A stretch of 64,000 nt of DNA, from NCBI RefSeq assembly GCF_048403405.1, contig NZ_CP183129.1; one strand, written 5' to 3'. Source of the DNA: Escherichia coli. Lineage in GTDB: Bacteria > Pseudomonadota > Gammaproteobacteria > Enterobacterales > Enterobacteriaceae. Below the pieces are notes generated by a model, which saw only the letters and a list, made by a program, of their open reading frames with translations, was not told the DNA's origin and made no database searches. The number at the start of each line of letters is the position of its first letter. Within the stretch, counting starts at the first letter, position 1. Shown one piece after another: positions 22,448 to 53,323 of the stretch. A program made the translations under genes and the position numbers.

Positions 22448-23011
22448 ATGATGTCATCTCGTTTGATTATTGCGCTGATTATCATGCTCTTAGCCCCGGG
22501 TGTGCAGGCGCACAATTTCGTCACTGGTAAAACGGTTACCCCTGTTTATATCCAGGAAGGCGGCGAGCTGCTTCTGAATAGCGACGACGAAATTCACTAC
22601 CAAAAGTGGAACAGCACACAGCTGGCGGGAAAAGTCCGCATTATTCAGTATATCGCCGGGCGTAAGTCGGCGAAGAAAAAGAACTCACTGTTAATTAAAG
22701 CGGTTGAAGCGGCAAACTTTCCGCAGGATCGTTTTCAGCCTACCACCATTGTGAACACTGATGATGCCATCTTTGGTACCGGCTATTTTGTCGTTGGCAA
22801 AATCGAAAAAAATAAACGCCGCTATCCATGGGCGCAATTCGTTATTGACGGCAATGGACAGGGACGCGTTGCCTGGCACTTGCAGGAGCAGAGTTCAACC
22901 ATTCTGGTGCTGAATAAAACCGGGCAAATTCAGTGGGCAAAGGACGGCAGCCTGACGCCGGAAGAGGTAGATCATGTCATTGCGCTGGCGCAGAAGCTGA
23001 TCAATGAATAA
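22448..23011 (+). CDS. YtfJ-family periplasmic protein (paralog)
   Basis: 187-aa ORF with signal peptide MMSSRLIIALIIMLLAPGVQA; extensive similarity to E. coli YtfJ (e.g. TIVNTDDAI, LTPEEV...LAQKL). Confidence 0.8.
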   Translation: MMSSRLIIALIIMLLAPGVQAHNFVTGKTVTPVYIQEGGELLLNSDDEIHYQKWNSTQLAGKVRIIQYIAGRKSAKKKNSLLIKAVEAANFPQDRFQPTTIVNTDDAIFGTGYFVVGKIEKNKRRYPWAQFVIDGNGQGRVAWHLQEQSSTILVLNKTGQIQWAKDGSLTPEEVDHVIALAQKLINE

Positions 23012-23041: not shown

Positions 23042-24112
23042 ATGAAGCTGGTTGAACACTACATCATGCGTGGTACGCGCCGTCTGGTGCTGATTATCGT
23101 CGGTTTTCTGATCTTTATTTTCGCCAGCTACTCCGCACAGCGTTATCTGACCGAAGCGGCAAATGGGACATTAGCTCTTGATGTTGTGCTGGATATCGTT
23201 TTCTACAAAGTGCTGATTGCACTGGAGATGTTGTTACCTGTTGGACTGTATGTGTCAGTTGGCGTGACGCTAGGGCAGATGTATACCGATTCGGAAATCA
23301 CAGCTATCTCTGCGGCGGGGGGCAGTCCGGGACGCTTGTACAAAGCCGTTCTTTATCTGGCGATACCGCTAAGTATTTTTGTCACCCTTCTGTCGATGTA
23401 TGGTCGTCCGTGGGCTTATGCGCAGATTTATCAACTGGAGCAACAGTCACAGTCGGAGCTGGATGTTCGCCAGTTGCGGGCAAAGAAATTTAACACTAAC
23501 GATAACGGACGAATGATCCTTTCGCAGACGGTTGATCAGGATAATAATCGCCTGACTGACGCGCTGATTTATACTTCTACTGCCAATCGAACCCGCATTT
23601 TCCGCGCCCGTTCGGTTGATGTGGTTGACCCATCACCTGAGAAACCGACCGTTATGTTGCATAACGGGACCGCCTATCTTCTCGATCATCAGGGGCGTGA
23701 CGACAACGAACAGATCTACCGTAATCTGCAATTACATCTGAATCCGCTGGATCAAAGCCCTAACGTCAAACGCAAAGCAAAATCGGTCACGGAGCTGGCG
23801 CGCTCCGTCTTTCCAGCCGATCATGCCGAACTGCAATGGCGACAAAGCCGTGGCCTGACAGCATTGTTGATGGCGCTGCTGGCCATTTCATTAAGTCGGG
23901 TAAAACCGCGGCAAGGGCGATTTTCAACATTATTGCCACTGACGTTGCTGTTTATTGCCATTTTTTATGGCGGCGACGTCTGCCGTACGCTGGTGGCTAA
24001 CGGCGCGATTCCCCTCATTCCTGGTTTGTGGTTAGTACCCGGACTCATGCTAATGGGCCTGCTGATGCTGGTCGCACGCGACTTCTCTTTGCTGCAGAAA
24101 TTTTCCCGATGA
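23042..24112 (+). CDS. LptF/LptG (YjgP/YjgQ) family permease paralog, first of pair
   Basis: 356-aa ORF; N-terminal RY(L/I) motif, TM helices flanking a central periplasmic domain, LptF-like architecture. Confidence 0.8.
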   Translation: MKLVEHYIMRGTRRLVLIIVGFLIFIFASYSAQRYLTEAANGTLALDVVLDIVFYKVLIALEMLLPVGLYVSVGVTLGQMYTDSEITAISAAGGSPGRLYKAVLYLAIPLSIFVTLLSMYGRPWAYAQIYQLEQQSQSELDVRQLRAKKFNTNDNGRMILSQTVDQDNNRLTDALIYTSTANRTRIFRARSVDVVDPSPEKPTVMLHNGTAYLLDHQGRDDNEQIYRNLQLHLNPLDQSPNVKRKAKSVTELARSVFPADHAELQWRQSRGLTALLMALLAISLSRVKPRQGRFSTLLPLTLLFIAIFYGGDVCRTLVANGAIPLIPGLWLVPGLMLMGLLMLVARDFSLLQKFSR

Positions 24113-25188
24113 ATGTTTTCAGTCGCTATTTAATCCGTCATCTCTTTCTCGGTTTTGCCGCCGCCGCAGGGCTATTGCTGCCGCTTTTTACCACCTTCAA
24201 CCTGATTAACGAACTGGATGATGTCAGCCCGGGCGGTTATCGCTGGACTCAGGCGGTGCTGGTGGTGCTGATGACCTTACCGCGTACACTGGTCGAACTT
24301 TCGCCGTTTATCGCCTTATTGGGAGGGATTGTTGGCCTGGGGCAGTTATCGAAAAACAGTGAGCTTACCGCCATTCGCAGCACTGGGTTTTCTATCTTCC
24401 GTATTGCACTGGTGGCGCTGGTTGCCGGGATATTGTGGACTGTTTCGTTAGGCGCGATAGATGAGTGGGTGGCGTCGCCATTGCAGCAACAGGCGCTGCA
24501 AATCAAATCGACTGCCACCGCGTTGGGGGAGGACGATGACATTACCGGCAATATGCTTTGGGCCAGGCGCGGTAATGAATTTGTGACGGTGAAATCGCTG
24601 AACGAGCAGGGCCAGCCTGTGGGCGTGGAGATATTTCATTATCGCGACGATCTCTCGCTCGAATCCTACATTTTTGCACGCAGTGCCTCCATTGAAGACG
24701 ACAAAACGTGGATCCTGCATGGTGTGAATCATAAAAAATGGTTGAATGGCAAAGAAACGCTGGAAACATCAGATAATCTTGCCTGGCAATCGGCCTTCAC
24801 CAGTATGAATCTTGAAGAGTTATCGATGCCGGGAAATACTTTTTCTGTCCGTCAACTTAATCATTACATCCATTATTTGCAGGAAACCGGGCAACCCAGC
24901 AGCGAATACCGCCTTGCACTGTGGGAAAAACTGGGACAACCCATCCTGACCCTGGCGATGATTTTGCTGGCTGTGCCGTTTACCTTTAGTGCCCCGCGTT
25001 CGCCTGGGATGGGTAGCCGTCTCGCTGTAGGCGTCATCGTGGGCTTACTCACCTGGATCAGCTATCAAATCATGGTCAATCTGGGGTTGCTATTTGCGTT
25101 GAGCGCACCTGTTACCGCGCTCGGTTTACCGGTAGCGTTTGTGATGATGGCGTTGAGCCTGGTGTATTGGTATGACAGACAACATTAA
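24109..25188 (+). CDS. LptF/LptG (YjgP/YjgQ) family permease paralog, second of pair
   Basis: ORF track 24028..25188; likely start ATG 24109 overlapping upstream stop (ATGA); MNVFSRYLIRHLFLGF... LptG-like. Confidence 0.8.
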   Translation: MNVFSRYLIRHLFLGFAAAAGLLLPLFTTFNLINELDDVSPGGYRWTQAVLVVLMTLPRTLVELSPFIALLGGIVGLGQLSKNSELTAIRSTGFSIFRIALVALVAGILWTVSLGAIDEWVASPLQQQALQIKSTATALGEDDDITGNMLWARRGNEFVTVKSLNEQGQPVGVEIFHYRDDLSLESYIFARSASIEDDKTWILHGVNHKKWLNGKETLETSDNLAWQSAFTSMNLEELSMPGNTFSVRQLNHYIHYLQETGQPSSEYRLALWEKLGQPILTLAMILLAVPFTFSAPRSPGMGSRLAVGVIVGLLTWISYQIMVNLGLLFALSAPVTALGLPVAFVMMALSLVYWYDRQH

Positions 25189-25189
25189 A

Positions 25190-25216
25190 CCCGCCGTGGC
25201 GCAGCGCCACAGCGGG
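25190..25216. terminator. hairpin in the 34-bp gap between convergent operons
   Basis: cccgccgtggcgc / gcgccacagcggg imperfect inverted repeat directly after the permease stop codon. Confidence 0.5.
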
Positions 25217-25222
25217 CTCACA

Positions 25223-26395
25223 TTACTGCTTCAGAGTAGCAAATGCCTGAATGATGGCATCGATTTGCTCACGACTGTGGGCAGCGTTTACGCTACAGCG
25301 CAGCAGCGTGATGCCTGCAGGCGCGGCAGGTGGCAGGATAAGATTCACATAAACGCCCAGCGAAATAAGCTCGCGCCAGATGCGTAAACCTTCCTCTTTC
25401 GAACCGATTATTACTGGCACTACCGGGCTAATATGTGAACTTAACTCATAACCCAGTTTTTGCAGACCGTCATACAGATGGTTGGCATTATCCATCAGCT
25501 TTTGCCGCAACTCTGGTTGTGTAGCAATGGTTCTTAACGACGAGCGCACGGTCGCAATGCAGGACGGAGAAGGAGAGGCGGTAAAAATATACGGGCGGCT
25601 GCCGTAGCGCAGCACTTCCATCGCTTCCGAACCGACAGCAAAACCGCCAATCGAGGCCAGACTTTTACTGAAAGTACCAACGATAATATCCACATCATCT
25701 TCAACGCCAACGGCTTCAGCCAGTCCGCGCCCCGTTGCGCCTAACACGCCAAACGAATGCGCTTCATCGACAATCAAATAACCACCGAGACGACGTTTGA
25801 TATCAACAATTTCCGCCAGCGGCGCAACGTCACCGAGCATACTGTAGATGCCTTCAACGATGATAATCGCCTCTTTTGCCCGTTCACCGAGGCGAACCAT
25901 GCGCCGTTCCAGATCTTTAGCATCGTTATGGCGGAAACGAATAATTTCCGCGCCACCGAGAGAACAGGCGTCATAAATACTGGCGTGGCTGTCGGCATCC
26001 AGTAACACCACGGCGTTATGGTCGGCAAGTGCGCTGATGACGCCTAAATTAGCGGTATAACCGGTTGAAAAAACGATAGCGGTAGGGCGATTAAAAAACT
26101 CGGCGATCTCTTTCTCTAACGCCAGATGCGGCGCATAACTGCCGTTTGCCATACGAGAACCGGTGGTGCCGGTGCCTTGGGCCGCTAACGCTGCCTGACC
26201 TTCGGCGATGGCATCATGATTGAAGGTTAATCCGAGATAATTATTGGTCCCGGCCAGAATCACTTTTTTATTGCCGATCCGGCCTTCGGTGGCGGAATAC
26301 ACTCCATCAATACAGGTACCAAACGGCGTTAACCCGTTGTCACTAAATTGCAGTCGCTCGCCAGCAAGACGCGCATATTTATCGTATAGCCCCAT
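25223..26395 (-). CDS. PLP-dependent alpha-oxoamine synthase, serine palmitoyltransferase-like
   Basis: 390-aa ORF; PLP-lysine motif VGTFSKSLASIGG; family also contains BioF/KBL/ALAS, so the SPT assignment is from gene context. Confidence 0.8.
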   Translation of the reverse strand: MGLYDKYARLAGERLQFSDNGLTPFGTCIDGVYSATEGRIGNKKVILAGTNNYLGLTFNHDAIAEGQAALAAQGTGTTGSRMANGSYAPHLALEKEIAEFFNRPTAIVFSTGYTANLGVISALADHNAVVLLDADSHASIYDACSLGGAEIIRFRHNDAKDLERRMVRLGERAKEAIIIVEGIYSMLGDVAPLAEIVDIKRRLGGYLIVDEAHSFGVLGATGRGLAEAVGVEDDVDIIVGTFSKSLASIGGFAVGSEAMEVLRYGSRPYIFTASPSPSCIATVRSSLRTIATQPELRQKLMDNANHLYDGLQKLGYELSSHISPVVPVIIGSKEEGLRIWRELISLGVYVNLILPPAAPAGITLLRCSVNAAHSREQIDAIIQAFATLKQ

Positions 26396-26643
26396 TATTT
26401 ATTCTCCAGCCATGGAAGTAGTGTTTCCATTAATTGCGCAGGGGTTTTGACATCCAGCAGAATATTAATAGGAATGGAAATATCGAATCTGTCTTCCAGC
26501 ATCATTAAGAGATCCATCACTTTGATCGACTCCAGGCCAAGATCGTTGACGAGATCGCTGTCGGGCTTAATTTCCACACCGTTTTCGACCAAATCCTGTA
26601 AACAGGAAAGGATGTAATCCATTACTATTTCACGATTTACCAT
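26395..26643 (-). CDS. dedicated acyl carrier protein
   Basis: 82-aa acidic ORF with phosphopantetheine-attachment motif DLGLESI; stop overlaps start of the downstream synthase. Confidence 0.8.
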   Translation of the reverse strand: MVNREIVMDYILSCLQDLVENGVEIKPDSDLVNDLGLESIKVMDLLMMLEDRFDISIPINILLDVKTPAQLMETLLPWLENK

Positions 26644-26674
26644 AGAAACGTTAACACACCTTTAAACAAGACAA

Positions 26675-27589
26675 TCAAAATAGCCCGTTGCGTAATGCGT
26701 GTTCCAGGCTAATCCCGGGAAACCAATTAATATCTTCAGAAATACGGTTATTACTTGCTGACCAGTCGGCGTGGGTTAATTCACGGATTTTCGAGCGGGT
26801 CAGCATAGGTTCTTTACCCGCCAGACGGCTCAACGCGGTACTGATATCCGCAAGGCAGGTGAGTACCGACAGAGGAATACCAACCATTCGAACGGAACCA
26901 CAACGGGCGTCGGCGGCAAGCTGTCTTACGCGTTGCCAGTCATAGCCGCCGGCGACGCCATCGCATAATTCATAGGTTTGCGTCTGTACAGTTTCGGCGC
27001 TTAACCACTGCCCCACGGCTTGCGCGAAATCGGTGACGTGCAGGAAAGAGAGCTGTGTATCTGGCGCACCAAGTCGTGGCAGCAGGCCGCGCAGCATCCA
27101 GTCAAACAGCGGTTTTAACTCTTTATCGCCGGGACCATACACGGCTGTCGGGCGAAAAATGCCCAGCGTAATTTCGTCAGCCATTGCGGTCAGTCGTTGT
27201 TCGGCGACGTGTTTGGAATTTGCGTACCAGGAGAGTTCGGGATGGCGCGCCGCCAGCGAAGAGATAAACAGAAAACGTTGGCAAAAGCCGCTCTCTTTTG
27301 CCGCTTGCATCAGTCGCAGGCTGCCGTCAACGTTACAGCGGGTAAAAATCTCTTCTTTGTGCCCGCGCACTTGCCCGGCGCAATGGACCACCGCGCTGGC
27401 TCCGGCAACCAGTTCGCTAAGTGAATGAGTATCTTCCAGAGAACCGCGCACCCAGGTGAGATTATCATTGACGTGAGCGCGGGCAGTACGCGTCAATGCG
27501 CGAACGTGAAAGCCGCGGGCGAGCAGGTTATCGATAATATATTTACCGATAAACCCGGTAGCGCCCGTCACCGCGACAGTTTGATTCAT
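26675..27589 (-). CDS. NAD(P)-binding epimerase/dehydratase-fold reductase (CerR-like)
   Basis: 304-aa ORF; N-terminal Rossmann motif VAVTGATGFIGKYI. Confidence 0.8.
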   Translation of the reverse strand: MNQTVAVTGATGFIGKYIIDNLLARGFHVRALTRTARAHVNDNLTWVRGSLEDTHSLSELVAGASAVVHCAGQVRGHKEEIFTRCNVDGSLRLMQAAKESGFCQRFLFISSLAARHPELSWYANSKHVAEQRLTAMADEITLGIFRPTAVYGPGDKELKPLFDWMLRGLLPRLGAPDTQLSFLHVTDFAQAVGQWLSAETVQTQTYELCDGVAGGYDWQRVRQLAADARCGSVRMVGIPLSVLTCLADISTALSRLAGKEPMLTRSKIRELTHADWSASNNRISEDINWFPGISLEHALRNGLF

Positions 27590-29334
27590 GCCAGGGATTC
27601 CTGCACATGAAGGCTTGCAGCATAAGCCTTCTGATAACGTTTTTTCGCTTCCGCACGGGCAGGCTTGCCGGAGGACGTTCGGGGAATACTGTGGGGCGGC
27701 AACAGATCGATAGCCGCGGTCACGCCAAATTCGCTTTGGATCCGTGCTGCCAGCGCGTGGATAAGCTGCCCGCGACGTTCTTCATCGCTGATCCGACACT
27801 GGATCTGCAAAATGATTTTTTCCTGGGCGGTAACAAAAGCAATCGCATCGCCAGAATGAATTTCCGGTTCCTGTTCCGCAATATATTCAATATCCTGCGG
27901 CCAGATATTACGGCCACGAATAATAATCAGATCTTTAATGCGTCCGGTGACATACAGATAACCGTCCAGCAGATAACCGAGGTCGCCGGTGTCTAACCAG
28001 CCCGTCGCGGCAATCTCGTCTTGCGAAACCTGGTCGCCAAAGTAACCGCTCATCAGGCTGGGGCCGGAGATGCAAATATGGCCTACCACACGTTCCGCGA
28101 CAGGTATACCTGCTTCATTGCGGATTTCAATGCCATGTTCCGGCAACGCTTTACCGCAGTTGACGAAAGTCGATACGGCGCGTGTTTCAGCATCCGGCGC
28201 GACGGCTTTGCCCTGATATTCGAGGATGTCGCGATCCACTTCGTTAACCACAACCCCGGAAGCTTCATCAGAGAAGCTGACAGCCAGCGCATTTTCTGCC
28301 AGTCCGTAGCACGGCATGAAAGTTTTATCGTCAAAGTTGACCTGACGGAAACATTCAGCGAATTGATGGAGTTGTTCTGCGGAGATGGGTTCTGCACCAA
28401 TACCAGCGACGCGCCAGCAGGAAAGATCCAGTTCAGCGAGATCTTTTTCATTCACGCGGCGCTGGCACAATTCATAGCCAAACGGCGGCGCAACGGAAAC
28501 GGTGCCGCGATTTTTACTGATCAATTTAAGCCATTGCAGAGGACGCATGGCAAAATCCTGAGTGCGCAAATAATCTACTGAAAGCTGCGTGGCGACGGGG
28601 GTCAGGAGAAAGCCGACCAGTCCCATATCATGGTAGAAAGGCAGCCAGGAGACGCAGCGGTCGCCAGGGCGTAATTTAATGCCATCGTGGCTTATAGCAC
28701 GTAGATTAGCCATCACTTCGCGATGGGTGATAATGACGCCACGGGGAAAACGGGTGCTGCCGGAGGTGTACTGGAGGTAGGCGATATCGTTCGGAACTGG
28801 ACGCTGGAGCGCAACATCGGCTTCCGGTAATGCCTTAAACCAGGCGTGGCTTAAAACATGTAATTCGGGGTTGTTATGCGTAGCGGCATTGACCAGTGGC
28901 AACCACTCATCACCAGTGATAATGGCTGCGGGCTGGCAACTTGCCAGTAAACCCTGCAGTTTGGCGCTCCAGGAATCCCGCTGACCGACGCCCATTGGAA
29001 TCGCCAACGGGACGGCGACTAAGCCGGCATACTGGCAGGAAAAAAAAGCCTCTACGAACCCGCTACTGGTTTCGGCAATCAGCGCCACGCGATCGCCTTT
29101 TTTCAGGTTCAGCGATAACAACCGCTTCGCACCAGCTTCGGCACGCGCTTTTAACGTCTGATATTCCAGTTGATCTTCAAGTTGGCAACGTCTGTCATAA
29201 AAATTCATTCCGGCGCTACTCAGAGCGGCGTAGTCCAAAGCATCAACCAGCGTTGGAAAATCGGCATAGCGCATAGGTAGGGAATGCGTAAAGATTTTAT
29301 TAGACATATACACCACGAAAAAATTGGATATCAA
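27586..29334 (-). CDS. AMP-dependent synthetase/ligase (fatty acyl-AMP / acyl-ACP ligase-like)
   Basis: 582-aa ORF; adenylation motif YTSGSTRFPRGV; the true start may be the internal ATG at complement of 29305-29307 (MSNKIF). Confidence 0.8.
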   Translation of the reverse strand: MISNFFVVYMSNKIFTHSLPMRYADFPTLVDALDYAALSSAGMNFYDRRCQLEDQLEYQTLKARAEAGAKRLLSLNLKKGDRVALIAETSSGFVEAFFSCQYAGLVAVPLAIPMGVGQRDSWSAKLQGLLASCQPAAIITGDEWLPLVNAATHNNPELHVLSHAWFKALPEADVALQRPVPNDIAYLQYTSGSTRFPRGVIITHREVMANLRAISHDGIKLRPGDRCVSWLPFYHDMGLVGFLLTPVATQLSVDYLRTQDFAMRPLQWLKLISKNRGTVSVAPPFGYELCQRRVNEKDLAELDLSCWRVAGIGAEPISAEQLHQFAECFRQVNFDDKTFMPCYGLAENALAVSFSDEASGVVVNEVDRDILEYQGKAVAPDAETRAVSTFVNCGKALPEHGIEIRNEAGIPVAERVVGHICISGPSLMSGYFGDQVSQDEIAATGWLDTGDLGYLLDGYLYVTGRIKDLIIIRGRNIWPQDIEYIAEQEPEIHSGDAIAFVTAQEKIILQIQCRISDEERRGQLIHALAARIQSEFGVTAAIDLLPPHSIPRTSSGKPARAEAKKRYQKAYAASLHVQESLA

Positions 29335-29678
29335 AAATAAAATGACAATAATGCGGTGGATTATATAGGCATAAAAGATAAATGAGATAGTATTTTCATC
29401 AGTGTGAAAATGAACATTGATTTAAATAATGAGTTTGAGTTTTTTTGTTTTTATTGTGAATGATATTTAATTTATGAATGTATTAAGAAGAAGCCTTGTC
29501 CGGTCGCCTTAAATCGACAAAAGGCATTGTGGCGCTTCTGTGTAGTCTCTGACCTTATCGTAATCATTAATAAATGCTATTTATTCGTCGTTTGTATTCA
29601 TTGGGTTGATTATTAAGGTGCCGTTCGTTGCTGTTGCAACCTGTTTGTCACCGTTAATTATTTGTTACCCACAGAACT

Positions 29679-30821
29679 ATGGAATGCGATCTGCTGATGA
29701 TTAAAATTGAAAAAGTAATTAATAAAAATGACCTTAAGGCATTTATCGCTTTTCCGTCATCACTTTATCCCGACGATCCAAACTGGATACCCCCTTTATT
29801 CATTGAACGCAACGAGCATTTGTCTGCGAAAAATCCGGGGACGGACCATATCATCTGGCAGGCGTGGGTGGCAAAAAAAGCCGGGCAGATAGTTGGGCGA
29901 ATTACCGCGCAAATCGATACCTTGCACCGTGAGCGTTACGGTGAAGATACCGGTCATTTCGGCATGATTGACGCCATTGATGATCCGCAGGTTTTTGCCG
30001 CGTTGTTTGGCGCAGCGGAAGCGTGGTTGAAGTCACAAGGAGCAAGTAAGATCAGCGGGCCTTTCAGCCTGAATATCAATCAGGAAAGCGGATTACTGAT
30101 TGAAGGTTTCGATACACCACCCTGTGCGATGATGCCGCACGGTAAACCGTGGTATGCCGCGCATATTGAACAATTGGGTTATCACAAAGGCATTGATTTA
30201 CTGGCGTGGTGGATGCAGCGAACCGATCTTACTTTCTCTCCGGCGCTAAAAAAACTGATGGATCAGGTGCGCAAAAAGGTGACCATTCGCTGCATCAATC
30301 GCCAGCGGTTTGCCGAAGAGATGCTGATCCTGCGTGAGATTTTCAACTCTGGCTGGCAGCATAACTGGGGATTTGTGCCGCTTACCGAACATGAGTTCGC
30401 GACTATGGGCGATCAGCTTAAGTACCTGGTGCCGGACGATATGATCTACATCGCCGAGATTGATTCTGCACCCTGTGCGTTTATTGTCGGCTTACCGAAC
30501 ATCAACGAGGCGATTGCCGATCTGAACGGATCGCTCTTTCCCTTCGGCTGGGCAAAATTGCTGTGGCGTTTAAAAGTCAGCGGTGTGCGAACTGCGCGAG
30601 TACCGCTGATGGGCGTGCGGGACGAGTATCAGTTCAGCCGCATCGGCCCGGTGATTGCGTTGTTATTGATTGAAGCCTTACGCGATCCGTTTGCCCGCCG
30701 GAAGATCGATGCGCTGGAGATGTCATGGATCCTCGAAACCAATACAGGCATGAATAACATGCTGGAACGCATTGGGGCGGAGCCGTACAAGCGTTACCGA
30801 TTGTATGAAAAGCAGATTTGA
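29679..30821 (+). CDS. yghO: YghO, putative GNAT-fold N-acyltransferase, apparently intact
   Basis: 380-aa uninterrupted ORF divergent from the ligase operon; assignment as yghO is by position next to glcC and recollection of the K-12 map. Confidence 0.7.
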   Translation: MECDLLMIKIEKVINKNDLKAFIAFPSSLYPDDPNWIPPLFIERNEHLSAKNPGTDHIIWQAWVAKKAGQIVGRITAQIDTLHRERYGEDTGHFGMIDAIDDPQVFAALFGAAEAWLKSQGASKISGPFSLNINQESGLLIEGFDTPPCAMMPHGKPWYAAHIEQLGYHKGIDLLAWWMQRTDLTFSPALKKLMDQVRKKVTIRCINRQRFAEEMLILREIFNSGWQHNWGFVPLTEHEFATMGDQLKYLVPDDMIYIAEIDSAPCAFIVGLPNINEAIADLNGSLFPFGWAKLLWRLKVSGVRTARVPLMGVRDEYQFSRIGPVIALLLIEALRDPFARRKIDALEMSWILETNTGMNNMLERIGAEPYKRYRLYEKQI

Positions 30822-43520: not shown

Positions 43521-44057
43521 ATGTTACGCGATAAATTTATTCACTATTTTCAGCAATGGCGTGAACGCCAGTTAAGCCGTGGCGAACACTGGCTGACACA
43601 ACACCTGGCGGGGCGTTCTCCGCGTGAAAAAGGCATGTTACTGGCAGCGGTAGTGTTCCTGTTTAGCGCCGGATATTACGTCCTCATCTGGCAGCCGTTG
43701 AGCGAACGGATAGAACAACAGGAGACGATGTTGCAGCAGCTGGTGGCGATGAACGCGCGACTGAAGAGCGCCGCGCCGAATATTATTGCGGCGCGAAAAT
43801 CCGGCACGACAACGCCAGCACAGGTATCGCGGGTCATCAGCGACAGCGCTTCCGCGCACTCTGTGGTCATCAAACGGATTGCCGAGCGTGGGGAGAATAT
43901 TCAGGTCTGGATAGAACCTGTGGTGTTTAATGACCTGCTGAACTGGTTAAAGGCGCTGGATGAAAAGTACGCGCTGCGGGTGGCACAAATTGATGTCAGT
44001 GCGGGTGAGAAGCCTGGGATGGTGAATGTGCAGCGACTGGAGTTTGGGCGGGGGTAG
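43521..44057 (+). CDS. gspM: type II secretion protein GspM (YghD)
   Basis: 178-aa ORF MLRDKFIHYFQQWRERQLSRGEHWLTQHLAGRSPREKGMLLAAVVFLF... with single TM helix. Confidence 0.85.
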   Translation: MLRDKFIHYFQQWRERQLSRGEHWLTQHLAGRSPREKGMLLAAVVFLFSAGYYVLIWQPLSERIEQQETMLQQLVAMNARLKSAAPNIIAARKSGTTTPAQVSRVISDSASAHSVVIKRIAERGENIQVWIEPVVFNDLLNWLKALDEKYALRVAQIDVSAGEKPGMVNVQRLEFGRG

Positions 44058-44692
44058 GTATTGCCATTTCCTTAACCCCACCTGATAACCCTTAGCCCAA
44101 TGGTGAGTGCGGAACTGTCAAACCCGCTCACCGGGCTGAGTTTCGATGTAGCAAGAATTATCTCCCTCCAGACCACCACGGAATATTCGGTAACACTGAA
44201 GGAACCTGTTTTTCACCATGTAGCCTTCGTTAATCGACACCTTTCTCAGACTGTAAAGTTGCTTAAGTGTTTTGACACATTATGATTATTAATAGTTGTA
44301 ATAAATCATTGAGTAACAATTGATAGGCAAAAACATATAGGATAATTCTAGTGTGATCTGTATTTTGTGTAACCTGGAAGTTAGTAAAATTCCTGGAGAT
44401 AATCAGAAAGGGAATTTCAAATAAGCATAATAATTTCCAGTGAAACTATTCGTCGATTTTAAGAAATGTCTGCTCAGGTATATCTACTGAGGGATGGTGT
44501 TGGTTGTAACACTGGTTAAAATAAACACACAAAAATAATCAAGATGTATATTTTAATCGACAAAAATAATTACTCGCGGAATTATTGATGGGTGTTAAAT
44601 AACACCGTTTAAATGTGATGTAAATCACAAATGTGACTGTAAAGAGGGTGCTGTAGATATAAATAAGAAGTACATGAGTGAATTTTAAATAG

Positions 44693-45198: not shown

Positions 45199-45230
45199 CA
45201 TACCTGAAGAGAATAGGATCACATCACCAA

Positions 45231-46007
45231 ATGGCAAGAAGTGGATTTGAAGTCCAGAAAGTCACCGTAGAGGCATTATTTCTACGAGAAATACGAACAC
45301 GCTTTGGTAAGTTCCGTCTGGGATATCTGTGGGCGATTCTCGAACCCTCTGCGCATTTGCTGATACTGTTGGGCATTTTTGGTTACATTATGCACCGCAC
45401 GATGCCAGACATCTCGTTCCCGGTGTTTTTACTTAATGGCCTGATTCCCTTTTTTATCTTTAGCAGTATCAGCAAACGTTCTGTAAGTGCTATTGAAGCG
45501 AACCAGGGGCTGTTTAATTATCGCCCAGTAAAACCCATCGATACGATCATTGCGCGCGCCCTGCTTGAGACGCTGATTTACGTTTCTGTTTATATTCTGC
45601 TTATGCTCATTGTCAGGATGGCAGGCGAATATTTCGAGATAACAAATTTTTTACAACTTGTGGCTACCTGGAGTCTGCTGATCATTCTTTCATGCAGCGT
45701 CGGCTTAATATTCATGGTCGTTGGTAAAACCTTCCCCGAAATGCAAAAGGTTCTGCCGATACTTCTTAAGCCCCTTTATTTCATCTCCTGCATCATGTTC
45801 CCTCTGCACTCAATTCCAAAGCAATACTGGTCATATCTACTCTGGAACCCACTAGTGCATGTCGTGGAGTTAAGCCGTGAGGCCGTTATGCCTGGCTATA
45901 TTAGCGAAGGTGTGAGTCTGAACTACCTGGCAATGTTCACATTGATAACTCTGTTCATTGGTCTGGCGTTATATCGAACTCGTGAGGAGGCAATGCTGAC
46001 ATCATGA
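45231..46007 (+). CDS. kpsM: group 2 capsule ABC exporter permease
   Basis: ORF track 45171..46007; MARSGFEVQKVTVEALFLREIRTRFGKFRLGYLWAILEP... begins at ATG 45231. Confidence 0.93.
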   Translation: MARSGFEVQKVTVEALFLREIRTRFGKFRLGYLWAILEPSAHLLILLGIFGYIMHRTMPDISFPVFLLNGLIPFFIFSSISKRSVSAIEANQGLFNYRPVKPIDTIIARALLETLIYVSVYILLMLIVRMAGEYFEITNFLQLVATWSLLIILSCSVGLIFMVVGKTFPEMQKVLPILLKPLYFISCIMFPLHSIPKQYWSYLLWNPLVHVVELSREAVMPGYISEGVSLNYLAMFTLITLFIGLALYRTREEAMLTS

Positions 46008-46675
46008 TTAAGATTGAGAATTTGACGAAGTCATATCGCACGCCAACGGGTCGACATTATGTGTTTAAGGATTTAAACCTCGAAATCCCTTCAGGAAAAA
46101 GTGTTGCCTTTATTGGTCGTAATGGTGCGGGTAAATCAACGTTACTGAGAATGATTGGTGGCATTGACCGCCCCGACAGTGGAAAGATCATCACTAATAA
46201 AACAGTATCATGGCCAGTCGGCCTTGCAGGTGGATTTCAGGGAAGTTTAACCGGACGCGAAAACGTAAAATTTGTTGCGCGGTTATACGCGAAGCAAGAA
46301 GAACTGAAAGAGAAAATTGAGTTTGTTGAAGAATTTGCCGAACTTGGCAAGTACTTCGATATGCCGATTAAAACTTACTCATCAGGTATGCGATCGCGTT
46401 TAGGCTTTGGTTTAAGCATGGCATTTAAGTTTGATTATTATATCGTCGATGAAGTAACGGCGGTCGGTGATGCCAGGTTTAAAGAAAAATGCGCTCAATT
46501 GTTTAAAGAAAGGCATAAAGAATCTAGCTTTTTAATGGTTTCACATAGTTTGAATTCATTGAAAGAGTTTTGTGATGTGGCGCTATTCATACCTAGAGAT
46601 CATCAGACTTGTCTTTATCAGAATATTAATGACGCAATTAAGTTATATCAAAATGATGAAAATTTGAACATTTAG
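46004..46675 (+). CDS. kpsT: group 2 capsule ABC exporter ATPase
   Basis: 223-aa ORF with Walker A GRNGAGKST and ABC signature YSSGMRSRL; overlaps kpsM stop. Confidence 0.93.
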   Translation: MIKIENLTKSYRTPTGRHYVFKDLNLEIPSGKSVAFIGRNGAGKSTLLRMIGGIDRPDSGKIITNKTVSWPVGLAGGFQGSLTGRENVKFVARLYAKQEELKEKIEFVEEFAELGKYFDMPIKTYSSGMRSRLGFGLSMAFKFDYYIVDEVTAVGDARFKEKCAQLFKERHKESSFLMVSHSLNSLKEFCDVALFIPRDHQTCLYQNINDAIKLYQNDENLNI

Positions 46676-46686
46676 TGGAGCTAAAA

Positions 46687-47082
46687 ATGCGTAAAGTTAT
46701 CACCTTTGGTACATTTGATGTATTACATATAGGTCATATAAATATCTTAAAAAGGGCAAAAAAAATGGGGGACTATCTAATAGTTGGCGTCTCATCCGAT
46801 TATTTGAATTTCTCAAAAAAACAGAGGTATCCTGTTTATCCGGAAACTGAGCGTCTTGAAATAATTAGGTCCTTAAAATTTGTAGATGAAGTTTTTATTG
46901 AAGAGTCATTGGAATTAAAGGGCGAGTATATTAAAAAATTTAAGGCAGATATCTTAGTGATGGGAGATGATTGGCTAGGGCGATTTGATGAATATAAGGA
47001 ATTATGTGAAGTATCATATCTGCCAAGAACTGTTGGTATTTCAACGACAGAACTAATTTCTCAAATCAAAAGATATGGTTAA
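46687..47082 (+). CDS. glycerol-3-phosphate cytidylyltransferase (TagD-like)
   Basis: ORF track 46675..47082; MRKVITFGTFDVLHIGHINILKRAKKMGDYLIVGVSSD... HxGH nucleotidyltransferase motif, strong similarity to Bacillus TagD. Confidence 0.88.
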   Translation: MRKVITFGTFDVLHIGHINILKRAKKMGDYLIVGVSSDYLNFSKKQRYPVYPETERLEIIRSLKFVDEVFIEESLELKGEYIKKFKADILVMGDDWLGRFDEYKELCEVSYLPRTVGISTTELISQIKRYG

Positions 47083-47097
47083 TTTTGGAGAGGGATT

Positions 47098-48333
47098 TTG
47101 AAATTTCATTCAGAGATAAAAAACTCTATAAAAAATGCGAAGAAATTCAAAGGTATTTTATTTGTTAATATAATATCTTATCTGCTGCTAACAATTGCGA
47201 TAAGAAAAGGTCATTCGAAAGAGATTTTAAAATTTAAGTGGTTGATTTTACTTTTTGGCGGGAGTGTCGCTAAATATTTTGTTGCTAGGGCTTCATTTCT
47301 TAATGGTGATTATATATTTGCTAAGAAATTATATCAAGAGATAATTAAGGTAAACCCAATACATACTGATAGCTATTATGGGTTGGCTGATGTTTATAGA
47401 CTAACCGGAAATAAATTAGAAGCGAAGGATGTACTCATTCAAGTTTTTAATTTTTCTGATCGTTTGAAAACTTGGCTATTATTGGCGAACTTGGTTGATA
47501 CAAAAAAAGATTATGATGAATTATTGAATCATTGGGAAAGGGAATGTTCTTATAGGAATATACTTAAGTATCATTATGATGTGAACGATTACCTTATAAT
47601 TGCTGCGTTAAGGGCTAAACTATATGAAGAAGCATTAAATCGGGTTAAAGTATTGTTGGGAAGTATAAATTCTGAGGCTTTTATCTTACCAAAAACTAGC
47701 AATAAAAACTTTTCTGTTAATGCTGCTAAAATTGCATTATTAGGTCTAAAAAAAATATTGGATGCTAATAAAATACAGTTTTTTTTAGTTAGCGGAACAT
47801 TACTTGGTTGTATTCGTGATAAAAAATTACTAAAACATGACAAAGATATTGATATAGGAGTATGGAGCGAAACAAATCTATCCGTATTATCAACGAAAAT
47901 TGCTTGCTCTGGCTTGTTTGATATTGCACCTATGCGCTCACCGTATACGTTGAGAATAAAACATGTTAATGGTGTGGCAATCGACATATTTTTTCATTAT
48001 CGAGATCATGACAGCTATTGGCATGCGGGTTCAAAGCTGAGATGGAACAATACTCCATTTAATTTGATTTCTTATGGTTTTCTTGGGAACGTGTTTTTAA
48101 TACCAGAAAATTATGATTTATATTTGACTGAGAATTATGGAAACTGGATGCAAGAAAAAATGAAATTTGACTCTGCATTCGATACACCCAATCATGAAAT
48201 AGTTAATATGTATGAATTAAAAATACACGCGTATAAAAAGCTAATAATAAACATGAAAATTGGTAGTGTTGAAGGCGTTAGATATTATGAAGATAAATTA
48301 AATGAACTTGGGTGTATTATATCTAAGCCTTGA
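47098..48333 (+). CDS. two-domain protein: N-terminal TPR-like region plus C-terminal LicD-family phosphotransferase domain
   Basis: 411-aa ORF (TTG start after ggagaggg RBS); LicD-type motif SGTLLGCIRDKKLLKHDKDIDIG. Confidence 0.65.
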   Translation: MKFHSEIKNSIKNAKKFKGILFVNIISYLLLTIAIRKGHSKEILKFKWLILLFGGSVAKYFVARASFLNGDYIFAKKLYQEIIKVNPIHTDSYYGLADVYRLTGNKLEAKDVLIQVFNFSDRLKTWLLLANLVDTKKDYDELLNHWERECSYRNILKYHYDVNDYLIIAALRAKLYEEALNRVKVLLGSINSEAFILPKTSNKNFSVNAAKIALLGLKKILDANKIQFFLVSGTLLGCIRDKKLLKHDKDIDIGVWSETNLSVLSTKIACSGLFDIAPMRSPYTLRIKHVNGVAIDIFFHYRDHDSYWHAGSKLRWNNTPFNLISYGFLGNVFLIPENYDLYLTENYGNWMQEKMKFDSAFDTPNHEIVNMYELKIHAYKKLIINMKIGSVEGVRYYEDKLNELGCIISKP

Positions 48334-48386
48334 GGTCTATATAACTGAATATATTAAATATTAAAAAATAATCATGGGGACATAGT

Positions 48387-51300
48387 ATGTTGTTAACTAA
48401 GTTAGCTAAAAAAATATGCCAATCCAAAGAATATATTAACGGAATTTCTCTATACAAAAAAAAAGAATGGGAGAAGGCATTATTGTTCTTTGAGAAATCA
48501 ATCATAAAAAAAACAAAACATGCGGAGAGCTATTTTAAAGCAGGAATATGCAATCTTAAATTGCATAGATATGAAGAGGCATTTAAATATATAAGTAAAG
48601 CATTAGAATTGGAACCCTCAAATATACAGTGGAAAGAACAACTCGAACAGTGTGCAAGGCATCTTGATAAGTTAAATAATCATATGGTGAGCAAATCATC
48701 TACTGAAGAAGATTTATTAAGGGAAAAACTTAATACAGACTTTAATAATCCAAAATTACACGATAGACTTGCTGAGGTTCTTCATAAAAAAGGGCGTTGG
48801 TGGCAGGAAGTTGATACGCTGAAAAACGCAATAAAATTAGATCCTTCAATACCTGAACGTTATTTCAAACTTGGCACCGCATTAGAAAAGATGGGGCGTT
48901 TTAATGAGGCTAGTATATATTATAAAAAAGGACTTGAATTTAATAAAAAACATGATGCTATTTGGTATTATGCACTCGGATATTCGCTTGAATCTGATGA
49001 AACAAACAATGTAGAAAATGTCCGTAGTTCTAAAATAGCATATGCGACAGCTATATCGTTAGACAAAAAATTAAATAGTAATAAATTTGGAATAGGAGCA
49101 TTTCATCAATATAAGGGACGCTGGGCTAAGGCTATTGATGCGTATGAAAAACATACATCCATAAATCCATTATGTGCAGAGCTATATTATAGGCTCGGAT
49201 TATCTTATGATAGATGTTATCAATGGGATAAAGCCGCAGAGAATTATCGCAAGGCATTATCACTCGATGAAAATCATCCTTATTGGCATTATAGGCTAGG
49301 GTTTGTTTTAGAGAGAAGTCAAAAGTATCTTGATGCTGCTGTTGCTTATCAATTTGCAGCACAAAGCAATATCAAACATATCTCGATTTGGTACTATAGA
49401 TCTGGGTACGCATATGCTAAGGCTAATAAATACAGGCAATCCTGTGAAATGTATATAAAAGCATATGACTCTTCTCAGGAAATTTATGCATCACAAATAA
49501 AAGTTATTGATAACAATGATACCCATTTAAACTCTTACAGAAAAAAACTTAAATATGAAAGCAGGATTAATACTTTAGAGTCAGCAATTTCTAATTCATG
49601 CATAAATTATGGATTATGGTATGAATTAGGTAAAACATATGAATCTTCATGTAATTGGAATGATGCTGTCATTGCATATCATGAAGGTATTATGAGAAAC
49701 AATACATATACCAAAGACTATTATTATAGAATCGGATATTCATTATTCCGCGATGGGAATTATCAACAGGCATGTAATTTTTTTCGTAAAATAGAGATTT
49801 TTGGAACACCGTATGGGGCTCCTGATGATATTCTAACAAAAAATTTAACTTTTAGGAGGAATGCTACATACACTGAATTTTATGAAACATTATCAATTGA
49901 AAAAAACACTATACTTTATGAAAGCTTTCATGGTGCAAGTATTTCTTGTAACCCATATGCATTATTTTTAGATATTATTGATGATCAACGATTTGATAAT
50001 TTCAGACATATTTGGGTTATCAATAATGAAAAAAAAATCCCTGAGCAGCTAAAAAATAAAAAAAATGTATATTTTGTTTCAAGGCAAAGTGATTTATACA
50101 TGCAATGTTTGGCATCATGTGAATTTTTGATAAATAATGTTAGTTTTCCTGAGTATTTTATAAGAAAGAAAGGGCAGCGATATTTAAATACTTGGCATGG
50201 AACTCCTATAAAATTTCTTGGAAAAGATATTAAAGATGAATTTTTAGCACATAAAAATGTGGCTAGAAATTTCCTTCACACAACACATTTACTTAGTCCT
50301 AATACACACACAACTAATATTTTATTAGATAGGTATGATATATCTAATATATTTAGTGGGGAAATTAAAGAGTTAGGTTATCCTCGCATTGACCGGACTA
50401 TTAATCTTAGCTCTGAACGGAAGGAATATATACGTAGGAAAATTAATGCGAACGTTTACGATAAAGTAGTCTTGTATGCTCCAACTTGGAGAGGAATACA
50501 TGGAAAGGCAACTTTAGATATAGAAAAACTAAAGAACGATCTTGAAAAGTTGGCTGACCAGGATTGTCATATCGTTTTCCGTGGTCATCATATGATCGAA
50601 AAATTAGTAAGTGAGCAGAATATTTCTGGTATAACAATTGTTCCTTCTGAGATTGACACGAATGAGTTACTAGGGGCGATTGATATTCTTATCACAGATT
50701 ATTCAAGTATTGCTTTCGATTTTTTTGTAATGAATAGACCAGTAATTTACTATGCGTATGATATTGAGCAATATAATAATGAGAGAGGGTTGTATTTTCC
50801 TCTAAATGAATTACCTGGAACCGTTTGTTTTAATGATGTAGAGTTACTTAACACGTTAAGTGGATATCTTCGTAATGAAATATATTTCGATGCATCTAAA
50901 GGTATTGATAAGTTTTGTAAAAATGATGATGGAAGTGTATGTGGAAAAGTAATTGAATGGTTCTTCTTTGAAGAAAAATCCATATTGCTTAATAAAAACA
51001 AAAATAAAAATATACTTTTTTATATTGGTCCATTTATTCCAAATGGTATATTGTCATCATGGCTAAATCTTATATCGGTAATTGATCGTGATAAATATAA
51101 TATTTCTTTGGTTGTTGACCCAAAATTAATTCATGGTTTTCAAGAACGGTTCGAGCAGTTTAAGAGAGTCTCTCCAGATATTCAAGTCATTGGAACTTGT
51201 GGAAACATGCTTTATAATATTGAAGAGAAATGGCTTAATGATAAATTAAATAATCAATTCACCCTGGCAAGTAAGGAAATGTATGATATTCTTGATCATG

Positions 51301-52187: not shown

Positions 52188-52289
52188 AGCATTAATCTAT
52201 ATCATGATCGTCAAGAACCATTGATTGATTTGTAAGGAGGTATACCTCCTTACAAATTAAAGTAAATTTAGTTAAGTTAATAAATAATT

Positions 52290-53318: not shown

Positions 53319-53323
53319 ATAAT

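What the first reader, a model, noticed from the sequence alone, without database searches (positions are those of the whole stretch)
25223..30821. Ceramide/sphingolipid-type lipid biosynthesis operon in an E. coli chromosome
Four tightly packed, partly overlapping minus-strand genes encode, in order, an AMP-dependent fatty acyl ligase, an NAD(P)-binding epimerase/dehydratase-fold reductase, a dedicated ACP (DLGLES site) and a PLP-dependent alpha-oxoamine synthase (GTFSKS lysine). A YghO-type N-acyltransferase-like gene is divergently transcribed from the same AT-rich intergenic region. As I recall the Caulobacter pathway, this is the same enzyme set and order (serine palmitoyltransferase, dedicated ACP, acyl-ACP synthetase, CerR-type reductase, GNAT-type ceramide synthase). 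E. coli is not considered to make sphingolipids, and to my knowledge this locus has no experimentally assigned function. From memory of the K-12 map, K-12 retains only an IS5-disrupted yghO at this position, which would explain why it has been overlooked.
Basis: partly seen in the sequence, partly recalled or inferred. Interest (0 to 1): 0.92.

Follow-up and report, generated by a model that had tools for sequence, protein, structure and literature searches.

The report
Known E. coli sphingolipid (ceramide) gene cluster
The five genes are real and do encode a ceramide/sphingolipid synthesis pathway, but this E. coli locus is already annotated as such and was tested experimentally in 2022, so the finding is correct but not new.

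Summary
Window 25223-30821 holds an intact minus-strand operon, aasR-cerR-acpR-spt, and a divergently transcribed yghO. The sphingolipid reading is right:
- The 390-aa enzyme passes NCBI's curated serine palmitoyltransferase model and fails the BioF, KBL, ALAS and CqsA models.
- YghO folds as a tandem GNAT acyltransferase.
- The same five-gene layout recurs around spt in many proteobacteria, including Caulobacter.
- K-12 has lost 8.4 kb here to an IS5-associated deletion.

The novelty claim is wrong. RefSeq already names the gene spt. Padilla-Gómez et al. 2022 (PMC9386255) cloned the BL21(DE3) copies, which are 96-100% identical to those in the window. They showed that AasR, AcpR and SPT together make 3-oxo-sphinganine, and they named ECD_02852 and yghO as the reductase and N-acyltransferase. 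A 2026 preprint draws the E. coli UTI89 sphingolipid locus with its LptF2/LptG2 transporter genes.

Two points go beyond the papers I read. First, spt is present in 75% of complete E. coli genomes. Second, a conserved module sits beside the operon: YghR/S/T P-loop proteins, the YghQ flippase and a CHAD-fold protein. This module also accompanies spt in some beta- and gammaproteobacteria and is uncharacterised. In the papers I could search, nobody reports the native lipid in E. coli.

The parts
25223..26395 (-). spt, serine palmitoyltransferase (PLP-dependent alpha-oxoamine synthase), 390 aa
   Evidence: NF047599 SPT equivalog scores 598 bits (cutoff 500); the bioF, KBL, CqsA and ALAS models all fall below their cutoffs. 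Best solved relatives are Sphingomonas SPTs at 376 bits, against about 204 for KBL and 176 for BioF. His159, Asp231, His234, Lys265 and Arg390 (S. paucimobilis numbering) are conserved. It is 99.2% identical to BL21(DE3) SPTEc, which was shown to form 3-oxo-sphinganine.
26395..26643 (-). acpR, dedicated acyl carrier protein, 82 aa, phosphopantetheine serine in DLGLES
   Evidence: Matches ACP models only weakly and below the housekeeping cutoffs. [quoted passage not shown] An acpR lies directly upstream of spt in 80 of 82 spt loci.
26675..27589 (-). cerR/epi, NAD(P)-binding extended SDR, 304 aa; predicted (oxo)ceramide / 3-ketosphinganine reductase
   Evidence: Best solved relatives are NDUFA9-type extended SDRs; CerR is described as NDUFA9-like. 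It is 33-34% identical to the gene in the cerR position of Caulobacter loci. Published value: 34% identity, E 7e-38, to CC_1164. It is 97% identical to ECD_02852. The activity of the E. coli protein has not been shown.
27586..29307 (-). aasR, fatty acyl-AMP ligase acting as acyl-AcpR synthetase (573 aa from the RefSeq start; the ORF extends to 29334)
   Evidence: NF006624 fatty acyl-AMP ligase scores 874 bits (cutoff 600). It is 96% identical to ECD_02851/AasREc, which supports 3-oxo-sphinganine formation only with its cognate AcpREc.
29308..29678 (.). AT-rich divergent intergenic region between aasR and yghO (presumed promoters)
   Evidence: GC is 0.40-0.44. Promoter-like matches are no more frequent than in shuffled sequence, so no promoter is mapped.
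29679..30821 (+). yghO, bacterial ceramide synthase (bCerS/Aca) homologue, tandem-GNAT N-acyltransferase (probable true start at 29697)
   Evidence: No Pfam or NCBIfam hit. The AlphaFold model has pLDDT 96.1, and its best PDB matches are tandem GNAT proteins at E 1e-15. It is 42-43% identical to the gene after lptG2 in Caulobacter loci, which is the bcerS position. Published value: 44% identity, E 1e-107, to CC_1154. A homologue lies within 10 kb of spt in 58 of 82 loci.
25186..25220 (.). GC-rich hairpin (16-bp stem) between the convergent stops of lptG2 and spt; likely bidirectional terminator
   Evidence: Terminator scan. Function is inferred only.
23042..25188 (+). lptF2 (23042-24112) and lptG2 (24109-25188), second copies of the LPS-exporter permeases; candidate sphingolipid exporter
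   Evidence: TIGR04407 scores 318 bits and TIGR04408 scores 303 bits, both above cutoff. lptF2/lptG2 homologues lie within 10 kb of spt in 42-43 of 82 loci. The Caulobacter LptF2/G2 bind each other and LptB and can be deleted only when spt is absent; the same preprint draws the E. coli UTI89 locus.
17851..23011 (.). Accessory module: yghT (17851-18543, -), yghS (18717-19430, +), yghR (19462-20220, +), yghQ MOP-type flippase (20266-21615, +), CHAD-fold 274-aa protein (21615-22439, +), YtfJ-family protein with an N-terminal signal-like sequence (22451-23011, +)

Best explanation
This is the E. coli copy of the proteobacterial ('Rhodobacteria-type') ceramide synthesis locus.

Proposed mechanism:
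1. AasR adenylates a long-chain fatty acid and loads it onto the phosphopantetheine arm of the dedicated carrier AcpR.
2. SPT condenses acyl-AcpR with L-serine, releasing CO2, to give 3-oxo-sphinganine. Steps 1 and 2 have been shown for proteins 96-100% identical to these.
3. YghO, a tandem-GNAT bCerS homologue, adds the second acyl chain to the amino group.
4. The NDUFA9-like SDR (CerR) reduces the 3-keto group, giving dihydroceramide. Steps 3 and 4 are inferred from homology and synteny with Caulobacter. Their order is disputed in the literature.
5. The neighbouring LptF2/LptG2 permeases probably extract the lipid from the inner membrane for delivery to the outer membrane, perhaps with the YghQ flippase. 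This is inferred by analogy with Caulobacter.

The locus is the common state in E. coli. K-12 lost it through an IS5-associated 8.4-kb deletion.
For: Family assignment: the SPT equivalog model is passed while the BioF, KBL, ALAS and CqsA models are failed, and the best solved relatives are Sphingomonas SPTs. The catalytic residues are conserved.

Identity to tested proteins: 96-100% to the BL21(DE3) proteins. For those, co-expression of AasREc, AcpREc and SPTEc gave 3-oxo-sphinganine, AcpREc carried the prosthetic-group label, and SPTEc preferred acyl-AcpR in vitro.

Last two steps: YghO has a tandem GNAT fold, and the SDR is NDUFA9-like, as CerR is. Identity to the syntenic genes in Caulobacter sp. 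L084 is 55% (SPT), 41% (AcpR), 33% (CerR), 44% (AasR) and 43% (YghO). This agrees with published Table S2.

Co-occurrence in 82 spt loci: acpR 80, cerR 65, aasR 61, yghO 58, lptF2/G2 42-43.

Selection and prevalence: purifying selection within E. coli, dN/dS 0.02-0.16. spt is present in 4092 of 5426 complete genomes. RefSeq annotates 'spt: serine palmitoyltransferase'.
Against: No paper in the searchable library reports a sphingolipid in unmodified E. coli. The only hint is TLC spots migrating like sphinganine or ceramide in BL21 over-expressing an SPT together with Caulobacter AcpR and AasR.

The activities of E. coli YghO and the SDR have never been assayed. YghO matches no Pfam or NCBIfam model. 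YghO-family genes also occur away from spt.

Arg378 of the Sphingomonas enzyme is Leu in the enterobacterial SPTs.

The E. coli locus lacks the Caulobacter cpg head-group genes, so the final product is unknown. No promoter or expression condition is known.
Confidence: 0.85

Rival explanations
1. The genes are intact but the locus is effectively silent in E. coli. It would be expressed only under unknown host or environmental conditions, so E. coli membranes normally contain no sphingolipid. This is compatible with the enzymology above; it disputes only native production.
For: No report of native E. coli sphingolipids in the searchable library. The control region is AT-rich with no above-chance promoter match. 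BL21(DE3), which carries the locus, showed no 3-oxo-sphinganine-like TLC spot with empty vectors in PMC9386255. K-12 lost the locus by deletion.
Against: All twelve genes compared show purifying selection between two E. coli lineages, dN/dS 0.02-0.16. The locus is retained in 75% of complete genomes and in about 18 Enterobacterales species. That pattern argues the product is made and matters somewhere.
Confidence: 0.4
2. The pathway runs in the eukaryote-like order: 3-oxo-sphinganine is first reduced by the SDR to sphinganine and then N-acylated by YghO. This is the Olea-Ozuna/Geiger model. The alternative is acylation first and reduction second, the Stankeviciute/Klein model.
For: PMC9386255 proposes exactly this order for ECD_02852 and ECD_02850. 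By inspection, the E. coli SDR begins directly with its GATGFIG nucleotide-binding motif, with no obvious signal peptide. That fits a cytoplasmic NAD(P)H-dependent reductase.
Against: In Caulobacter, deleting cerR causes oxidised ceramide to accumulate. CerR behaves as a periplasmic protein while Spt and bCerS are cytoplasmic, which supports acylation first. Nothing has been measured for the E. coli enzymes.
Confidence: 0.35
3. The alpha-oxoamine synthase natively uses a substrate other than serine plus a long-chain acyl group, such as BioF-, KBL- or CqsA-type chemistry or cysteate. The product would then not be a sphingoid base.
For: All these enzymes share one fold, and the protein gives sizeable scores to the bioF (334 bits) and KBL (298 bits) models. 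Arg378 of the Sphingomonas SPT is replaced by Leu.
Against: Every non-SPT model scores below its curated cutoff, while the SPT model is passed. The 99.2%-identical enzyme formed a 3-oxo-sphinganine-like product from labelled L-serine in vitro and in vivo. The gene context is that of ceramide synthesis in 58-80 of 82 loci.
Confidence: 0.03

Closest known systems
E. coli BL21(DE3) ECD_02850-ECD_02854 (yghO/aca, aasR, epi, acpR, spt), Padilla-Gómez et al. 2022, PMC9386255
   Same: This is the same locus in another strain. It has the same order, orientation and neighbours, and the proteins are 96-100% identical. AasR, AcpR and SPT were shown to give 3-oxo-sphinganine.
   Different: Only allelic differences, plus different annotated starts for aasR (573 aa against 562 aa). 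That paper cites only E. coli B strains as examples (ETEC B7A and BL21). Here spt is found in 75% of complete E. coli genomes.
Caulobacter crescentus sphingolipid locus CC_1152-CC_1168 (CCNA_01212-01226)
   Same: The operon order aasR-cerR-acpR-spt is the same. Both have a bCerS homologue, LptF2/LptG2 paralogues and a MOP-type flippase homologue. Identities are 55% SPT, 44% AasR, 41% AcpR, 33% CerR, 43% bCerS, 23-24% LptF2/G2 and 27% flippase, measured against Caulobacter sp. L084.
   Different: In E. coli bcerS (yghO) lies directly beside the operon and is divergently transcribed, not about 8 kb away. I found no homologues of the ceramide-phosphoglycerate genes (cpgABC and partners) or of lptC2 in the annotated window, and E. 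coli is not among the cpg-carrying organisms listed. Instead E. coli has yghR/S/T, a CHAD-fold protein and a YtfJ-family protein, which are absent from the Caulobacter loci. The native lipid is known in Caulobacter but not in E. coli.
Sphingomonas paucimobilis / S. wittichii serine palmitoyltransferase (PDB 2JG2, 2X8U)
   Same: Soluble homodimer-type SPT. It is 47% identical over the full length, and the PLP lysine and catalytic His/Asp/His/Arg390 are conserved.
   Different: Arg378 is Leu in the enterobacterial enzymes. In Sphingomonadaceae the aasR gene is distant from acpR-spt.
Bacteroidetes / deltaproteobacterial SPT pathway (Bacteroides, Sphingobacterium, Myxococcus)
   Same: The first reaction and the product class are the same.
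   Different: This is a separate SPT subgroup. The window protein scores 340 bits against NF047600, whose cutoff is 640. According to the papers read, Bacteroidetes and Myxococci carry only one lptFG copy, and Bacteroides has a candidate eukaryote-like 3-ketosphinganine reductase, BT_0972.

Membership tests
Rhodobacteria-type serine palmitoyltransferase (NCBIfam NF047599) | Scores above the curated SPT equivalog cutoff and below the cutoffs of sister alpha-oxoamine synthases (BioF, KBL, ALAS, CqsA) | tested here: met
   SPT 598 bits against cutoff 500; bioF 334/426; KBL 298/460; CqsA 221/428; ALAS 220/339. The PDB ranking agrees: SPT 376 bits, KBL about 204, BioF about 176, CqsA 124.
Rhodobacteria-type serine palmitoyltransferase (NCBIfam NF047599) | PLP-binding lysine and catalytic His159/Asp231/His234/Arg390 (S. 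paucimobilis numbering) | tested here: met
   All are invariant in the alignment of the E. coli, Serratia, Erwinia and S. paucimobilis enzymes. Arg378 is Leu; from my own knowledge this residue is not essential, and I did not test it.
Rhodobacteria-type serine palmitoyltransferase (NCBIfam NF047599) | Condenses L-serine with a long-chain acyl thioester to give 3-oxo-sphinganine | not testable with these tools
   Published for BL21(DE3) SPTEc, which is 99.2% identical to the window protein.
AcpR (specialised sphingolipid ACP) | Small PP-binding protein with a conserved serine, encoded immediately upstream of spt, distinct from housekeeping AcpP | tested here: met
   82 aa with DLGLES. It scores below the housekeeping ACP cutoffs. 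Its stop overlaps the spt start. An acpR is present in 80 of 82 spt loci. It is 100% identical to AcpREc, which incorporated labelled beta-alanine, the 4'-phosphopantetheine precursor.
AasR (specialised acyl-ACP synthetase, fatty acyl-AMP ligase type) | FAAL-family adenylating enzyme encoded with acpR and spt that acylates the cognate AcpR | tested here: met
   NF006624 scores 874 bits against cutoff 600. Present in 61 of 82 spt loci. It is 96% identical to AasREc, whose cognate specificity was shown in vivo. The acylation itself was not tested here.
CerR (bacterial ceramide reductase) | NDUFA9-like extended SDR with an NAD(P)-binding glycine motif, orthologous and syntenic to Caulobacter CC_1164/CCNA_01222 | tested here: met
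   N-terminal GATGFIG. NDUFA9 chains are among the best solved relatives. It is 33-34% identical over more than half its length to the gene between aasR and acpR in Caulobacter loci. Published: 34% identity, E 7e-38.
CerR (bacterial ceramide reductase) | Reduces oxo-ceramide or 3-ketosphinganine | not testable with these tools
   Never assayed for the E. coli protein. There is only a suggestion from TLC spots in BL21.
bCerS / Aca (bacterial ceramide synthase) | GNAT-fold N-acyltransferase orthologous to Caulobacter CC_1154/CCNA_01212 | tested here: met
   Tandem GNAT fold: model pLDDT 96.1, Foldseek E 1e-15 to 2wpw, 5kf1, 7q3a, MshD and Eis. It is 42-43% identical to the gene after lptG2 in Caulobacter loci. 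Published: 44% identity, E 1e-107. It has no Pfam or NCBIfam model hit.
bCerS / Aca (bacterial ceramide synthase) | N-acylates the long-chain base | not testable with these tools
   Not assayed for E. coli YghO in any paper I could read.
LptF2/LptG2 sphingolipid transporter permeases | Second LptF/LptG pair encoded in the sphingolipid locus | tested here: met
   The LptF and LptG equivalog models score 318 and 303 bits, above cutoff. The pair lies tail-to-tail with spt. It is present in 42-43 of 82 spt loci. The UTI89 locus is drawn with the Caulobacter one in the 2026 preprint. I did not check that the housekeeping lptFG pair lies elsewhere in this genome. The transport function is not testable here.
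CHAD domain (Pfam PF05235), considered for the 274-aa neighbour | All-alpha CHAD fold with conserved histidines and basic residues; matches the Pfam model | tested here: inconclusive
   [not shown]

The most novel reading that the evidence does not exclude
Most E. coli, and many other Enterobacterales, would natively make an outer-membrane sphingolipid that has never been detected. Its head group or maturation would depend on a conserved, uncharacterised module beside the ceramide genes. The module comprises three divergent P-loop kinase-like proteins (YghR, YghS, YghT), a CHAD-fold protein (CHAD being a domain otherwise known as a polyphosphate binder) and the MOP-type flippase YghQ. The same module accompanies spt in Luteibacter, Dyella, Methylotenera and Rhodocyclaceae, but is absent from the Caulobacter-type loci that carry the ceramide-phosphoglycerate genes. 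This suggests a second, possibly phosphate-rich, type of bacterial sphingolipid decoration.
Probability: 0.25. Interest if true: 0.6.

Novelty: already known. Interest (0 to 1): 0.15.

Why it matters
As submitted, the finding adds nothing to the record. The locus, its enzyme assignments and the first three activities are published, and the gene is named spt in RefSeq.

What still matters is the gap around it. Textbook E. coli lipid composition comes largely from K-12, which deleted this locus, whereas three quarters of complete E. coli genomes keep it under purifying selection. If the native lipid exists, it would be an unrecognised outer-membrane component of commensal and pathogenic E. coli. 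By analogy with Caulobacter and Bacteroides sphingolipids, it could bear on envelope stability, polymyxin and detergent sensitivity and host signalling. The neighbouring yghQRST/CHAD module would be the place to look for its head-group chemistry.

Tried and rejected
- **YghO sequence models.** Pfam and NCBIfam scans of YghO gave no hit, so the acyltransferase question was settled by structure prediction and fold search.
- **Context of distant YghO homologues.** P0121 is a fused double YghO-like protein beside type II/IV secretion ATPases, with no spt nearby. P0168 sits on a 2.4-kb contig. Neither was informative, so I switched to a genome scan seeded with SPT.
- **Stankeviciute et al. 2022 (Nat Chem Biol).** Not held under its DOI or PMC id. 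Its content is cited only through the papers that describe it.
- **Literature searches for native E. coli or enterobacterial sphingolipids.** These found nothing relevant. Searches on yghQ/R/S/T found only incidental mentions.
- **CpgB-type ceramide kinase as a model for YghR/S/T.** Rejected: CpgB is an LCB5/DAG-kinase-family protein, whereas YghS and YghT resemble thymidylate kinases only remotely.
- **YghR alignment.** It failed on an in-frame stop in one locus and was not repeated.
- **Promoter scan.** It gave no more matches than shuffled sequence, so no promoter is claimed.
Full report
**1. Observation**

Four intact minus-strand genes are packed with 4-nt and 1-nt overlaps and one 31-nt gap:
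- 27586-29334, 582 aa as the longest ORF; RefSeq starts it at 29307, giving 573 aa
- 26675-27589, 304 aa
- 26395-26643, 82 aa, with DLGLES
- 25223-26395, 390 aa, with GTFSKS

A divergent plus-strand gene lies at 29679-30821 (380 aa), across a region of about 40% GC. The window is 99.98-100% identical to E. coli MS 69-1 chromosome 772210-836209.

**2. What the proteins are**

- **390-aa protein.** Against NCBIfam it passes the serine palmitoyltransferase equivalog NF047599 (598 bits, cutoff 500). It fails every sister model: bioF 334/426, KBL 298/460, CqsA 221/428, ALAS 220/339. Against solved structures, the Sphingomonas SPTs score 376 bits, far above KBL (about 204), BioF (about 176) and CqsA (124). 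The PLP lysine and His159, Asp231, His234 and Arg390 (S. paucimobilis numbering) are conserved. Arg378 is Leu in the enterobacterial enzymes.
- **582-aa protein.** It passes the fatty acyl-AMP ligase model NF006624 (874/600).
- **304-aa protein.** It is an extended SDR with NDUFA9-type proteins among its closest solved relatives. This matches the published description of CerR.
- **YghO.** It matches no Pfam or NCBIfam model. An AlphaFold model built from 71 homologues (pLDDT 96.1) is a tandem GNAT fold. Its best PDB matches, at E about 1e-15, include the clavulanate tandem GNAT protein, a glucosamine N-acetyltransferase, MAB_4324, MshD and Eis.

**3. Comparative evidence**

A scan of one genome per species, seeded with an SPT alignment, returned 80 loci. 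I compared the thirteen island proteins with these loci plus two found earlier. Among the 82 spt loci, the numbers with a homologue within about 10 kb are:

| Gene | Loci |
|---|---|
| acpR | 80 |
| cerR | 65 |
| aasR | 61 |
| yghO | 58 |
| lptF2 / lptG2 | 42-43 |

Many loci are short contigs, so these counts are lower bounds.

The layout 'yghO divergent from aasR-cerR-acpR-spt' recurs in Enterobacterales, Rhodocyclaceae, Methylotenera, Nitrospira, Immundisolibacter and many gammaproteobacterial MAGs.

In Caulobacter sp. L084 the order is flippase-aasR-cerR-acpR-spt ... lptF2-lptG2-yghO homologue. This is the published CC_1166 to CC_1154 map. Identities to the window proteins are 27, 44, 33, 41, 55, 24, 23 and 43% respectively.

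**4. It is already known**

- RefSeq annotates 'spt: serine palmitoyltransferase' at this locus.
- Padilla-Gómez et al. 2022 (PMC9386255) worked on the BL21(DE3) genes ECD_02850-02854. The window proteins are 99.2% (SPT), 100% (AcpR), 97.0% (SDR), 96.3% (AasR) and 99.2% (YghO) identical to them.
  - AcpREc incorporates the phosphopantetheine precursor.
  - AasREc, AcpREc and SPTEc together produce 3-oxo-sphinganine in vivo.
  - AasREc works only with its own AcpR.
  - SPTEc prefers acyl-AcpR over palmitoyl-CoA in vitro.
  - The authors proposed ECD_02852 as the reductase and yghO/ECD_02850 as the N-acyltransferase.
  - Their Table S2 gives 44% identity (E 1e-107) for CC_1154 against yghO, and 34% (E 7e-38) for CC_1164 against ECD_02852.
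- Uchendu, Isom and Klein (bioRxiv 2026) show that Caulobacter LptF2/LptG2 form a complex, bind LptB and can be deleted only without spt. They draw the E. coli UTI89 sphingolipid operons alongside.

**5. K-12 and prevalence**

MG1655 aligns to the window up to 29719 on the glc side and from 21334 on the yghQ side, with IS5 between. The 8,384-bp loss removes the 3' end of yghQ, the 274-aa gene, the ytfJ-like gene, lptF2, lptG2, spt, acpR, cerR, aasR and the first 40 nt of yghO.

spt is present at 80% coverage or more in 4092 of 5426 complete E. coli genomes. The whole 5.6-kb segment is present in 4067.

Between the window strain and BL21, all twelve genes compared have dN/dS between 0.02 and 0.16. 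That comparison rests on one pair of strains and small counts.

**6. Mechanism**

- Shown, for near-identical proteins: fatty acid + ATP, via AasR, gives acyl-AcpR; acyl-AcpR + L-serine, via SPT, gives 3-oxo-sphinganine.
- Inferred from homology and synteny: N-acylation by YghO and keto-reduction by the SDR give dihydroceramide. The order of these two steps is disputed between the two Caulobacter groups.
- Inferred by analogy: export by LptF2/LptG2 with LptB.
- Unknown: the head group, the expression conditions, and whether wild-type E. coli makes the lipid at all. I found no report in the searchable library.

**7. Beyond the finding**

The genes upstream form a block with the ceramide genes in about 18 Enterobacterales species: yghT, yghS, yghR, yghQ, a 274-aa gene and a ytfJ-like gene.

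Outside Enterobacterales, yghR/S/T accompany spt at 40-60% identity, together with a yghQ homologue. This holds in Rhodocyclaceae (L037), Methylotenera (L044, L068), a betaproteobacterial MAG (L048), Luteibacter (L074) and Dyella (L078). The 274-aa gene accompanies them in four of these six loci. yghR/S/T and the 274-aa gene are absent from the Caulobacter- and Nitrospira-type loci.

**8. Verdict**

Interest is low for the finding as given. There is a modest residual opportunity in the undetected native lipid and the uncharacterised accessory module.

Noticed in passing
window 17851-22439 (yghT, yghS, yghR, yghQ, 274-aa gene): Three paralogous, very divergent P-loop (thymidylate-kinase-like) proteins, a MOP-type flippase and a 274-aa protein travel with spt. 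This holds in Enterobacterales and also in Luteibacter, Dyella, Methylotenera and Rhodocyclaceae, but not in Caulobacter- or Nitrospira-type spt loci. They are candidates for sphingolipid head-group or maturation genes and are not discussed in the papers I read.
   Followed up: partly
[not shown]
   Followed up: partly
L003:11352-11714, L005:11323-11682 and ten other Enterobacterales loci; L087:2203-2556: A small DgkA-type diacylglycerol kinase gene (PF01219) sits next to yghO in Serratia, Erwinia, Mangrovibacter, Tatumella and Rosenbergiella. A homologue also lies about 7 kb from spt in a Halioglobus MAG. It is absent from the E. coli window, where glcC abuts yghO. From my own knowledge, E. 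coli DgkA can phosphorylate ceramide in vitro, so this could be a ceramide kinase.
   Followed up: partly
window 25186-25220: A 16-bp-stem, GC-rich hairpin fills the 34-bp gap between the convergent stop codons of lptG2 and spt. It is probably a bidirectional terminator.
   Followed up: no
window 25223-26395 (SPT residue 354): Arg378 of the Sphingomonas paucimobilis SPT is Leu in the E. coli, Serratia and Erwinia enzymes. From my own knowledge this residue contacts the serine carboxylate. All other catalytic residues are conserved.
   Followed up: no
window 29307-29334 and 29679-29697: There are start-codon ambiguities. The ligase ORF begins at a TTG (582 aa), RefSeq uses the ATG at 29307 (573 aa), and BL21's annotation gives 562 aa. 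yghO is annotated as 380 aa, but orthologues in other genera are mostly 374 aa, which favours the Met at 29697.
   Followed up: partly
window 22451-23011 (+): A second YtfJ-family protein (TIGR01626, 216 bits) with an N-terminal signal-peptide-like sequence is encoded between the CHAD-fold gene and lptF2. It is conserved in this position across Enterobacterales. Its role is unknown.
   Followed up: no
window about 40400-44060: Next to glcA lie a frameshifted IS4 transposase and decayed type II secretion genes (a truncated gspK and a frameshifted gspL), followed by an intact gspM-family yghD. This is according to the RefSeq annotation of the near-identical MS 69-1 record.
   Followed up: no
window about 45230-62430: A capsule gene cluster lies downstream: KpsF-, KpsE- and KdsB-type export and synthesis genes, ABC transporter genes, glycosyltransferases and TPR proteins. 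It is flanked by IS110 and AbiEii pseudogene fragments and is unrelated to the finding.
   Followed up: no
L008:10001-12355: A 784-aa protein made of two YghO-like tandem-GNAT units is encoded in a metagenomic contig beside type II/IV secretion ATPase genes, with no spt nearby. The YghO family therefore also occurs outside sphingolipid loci.
   Followed up: no
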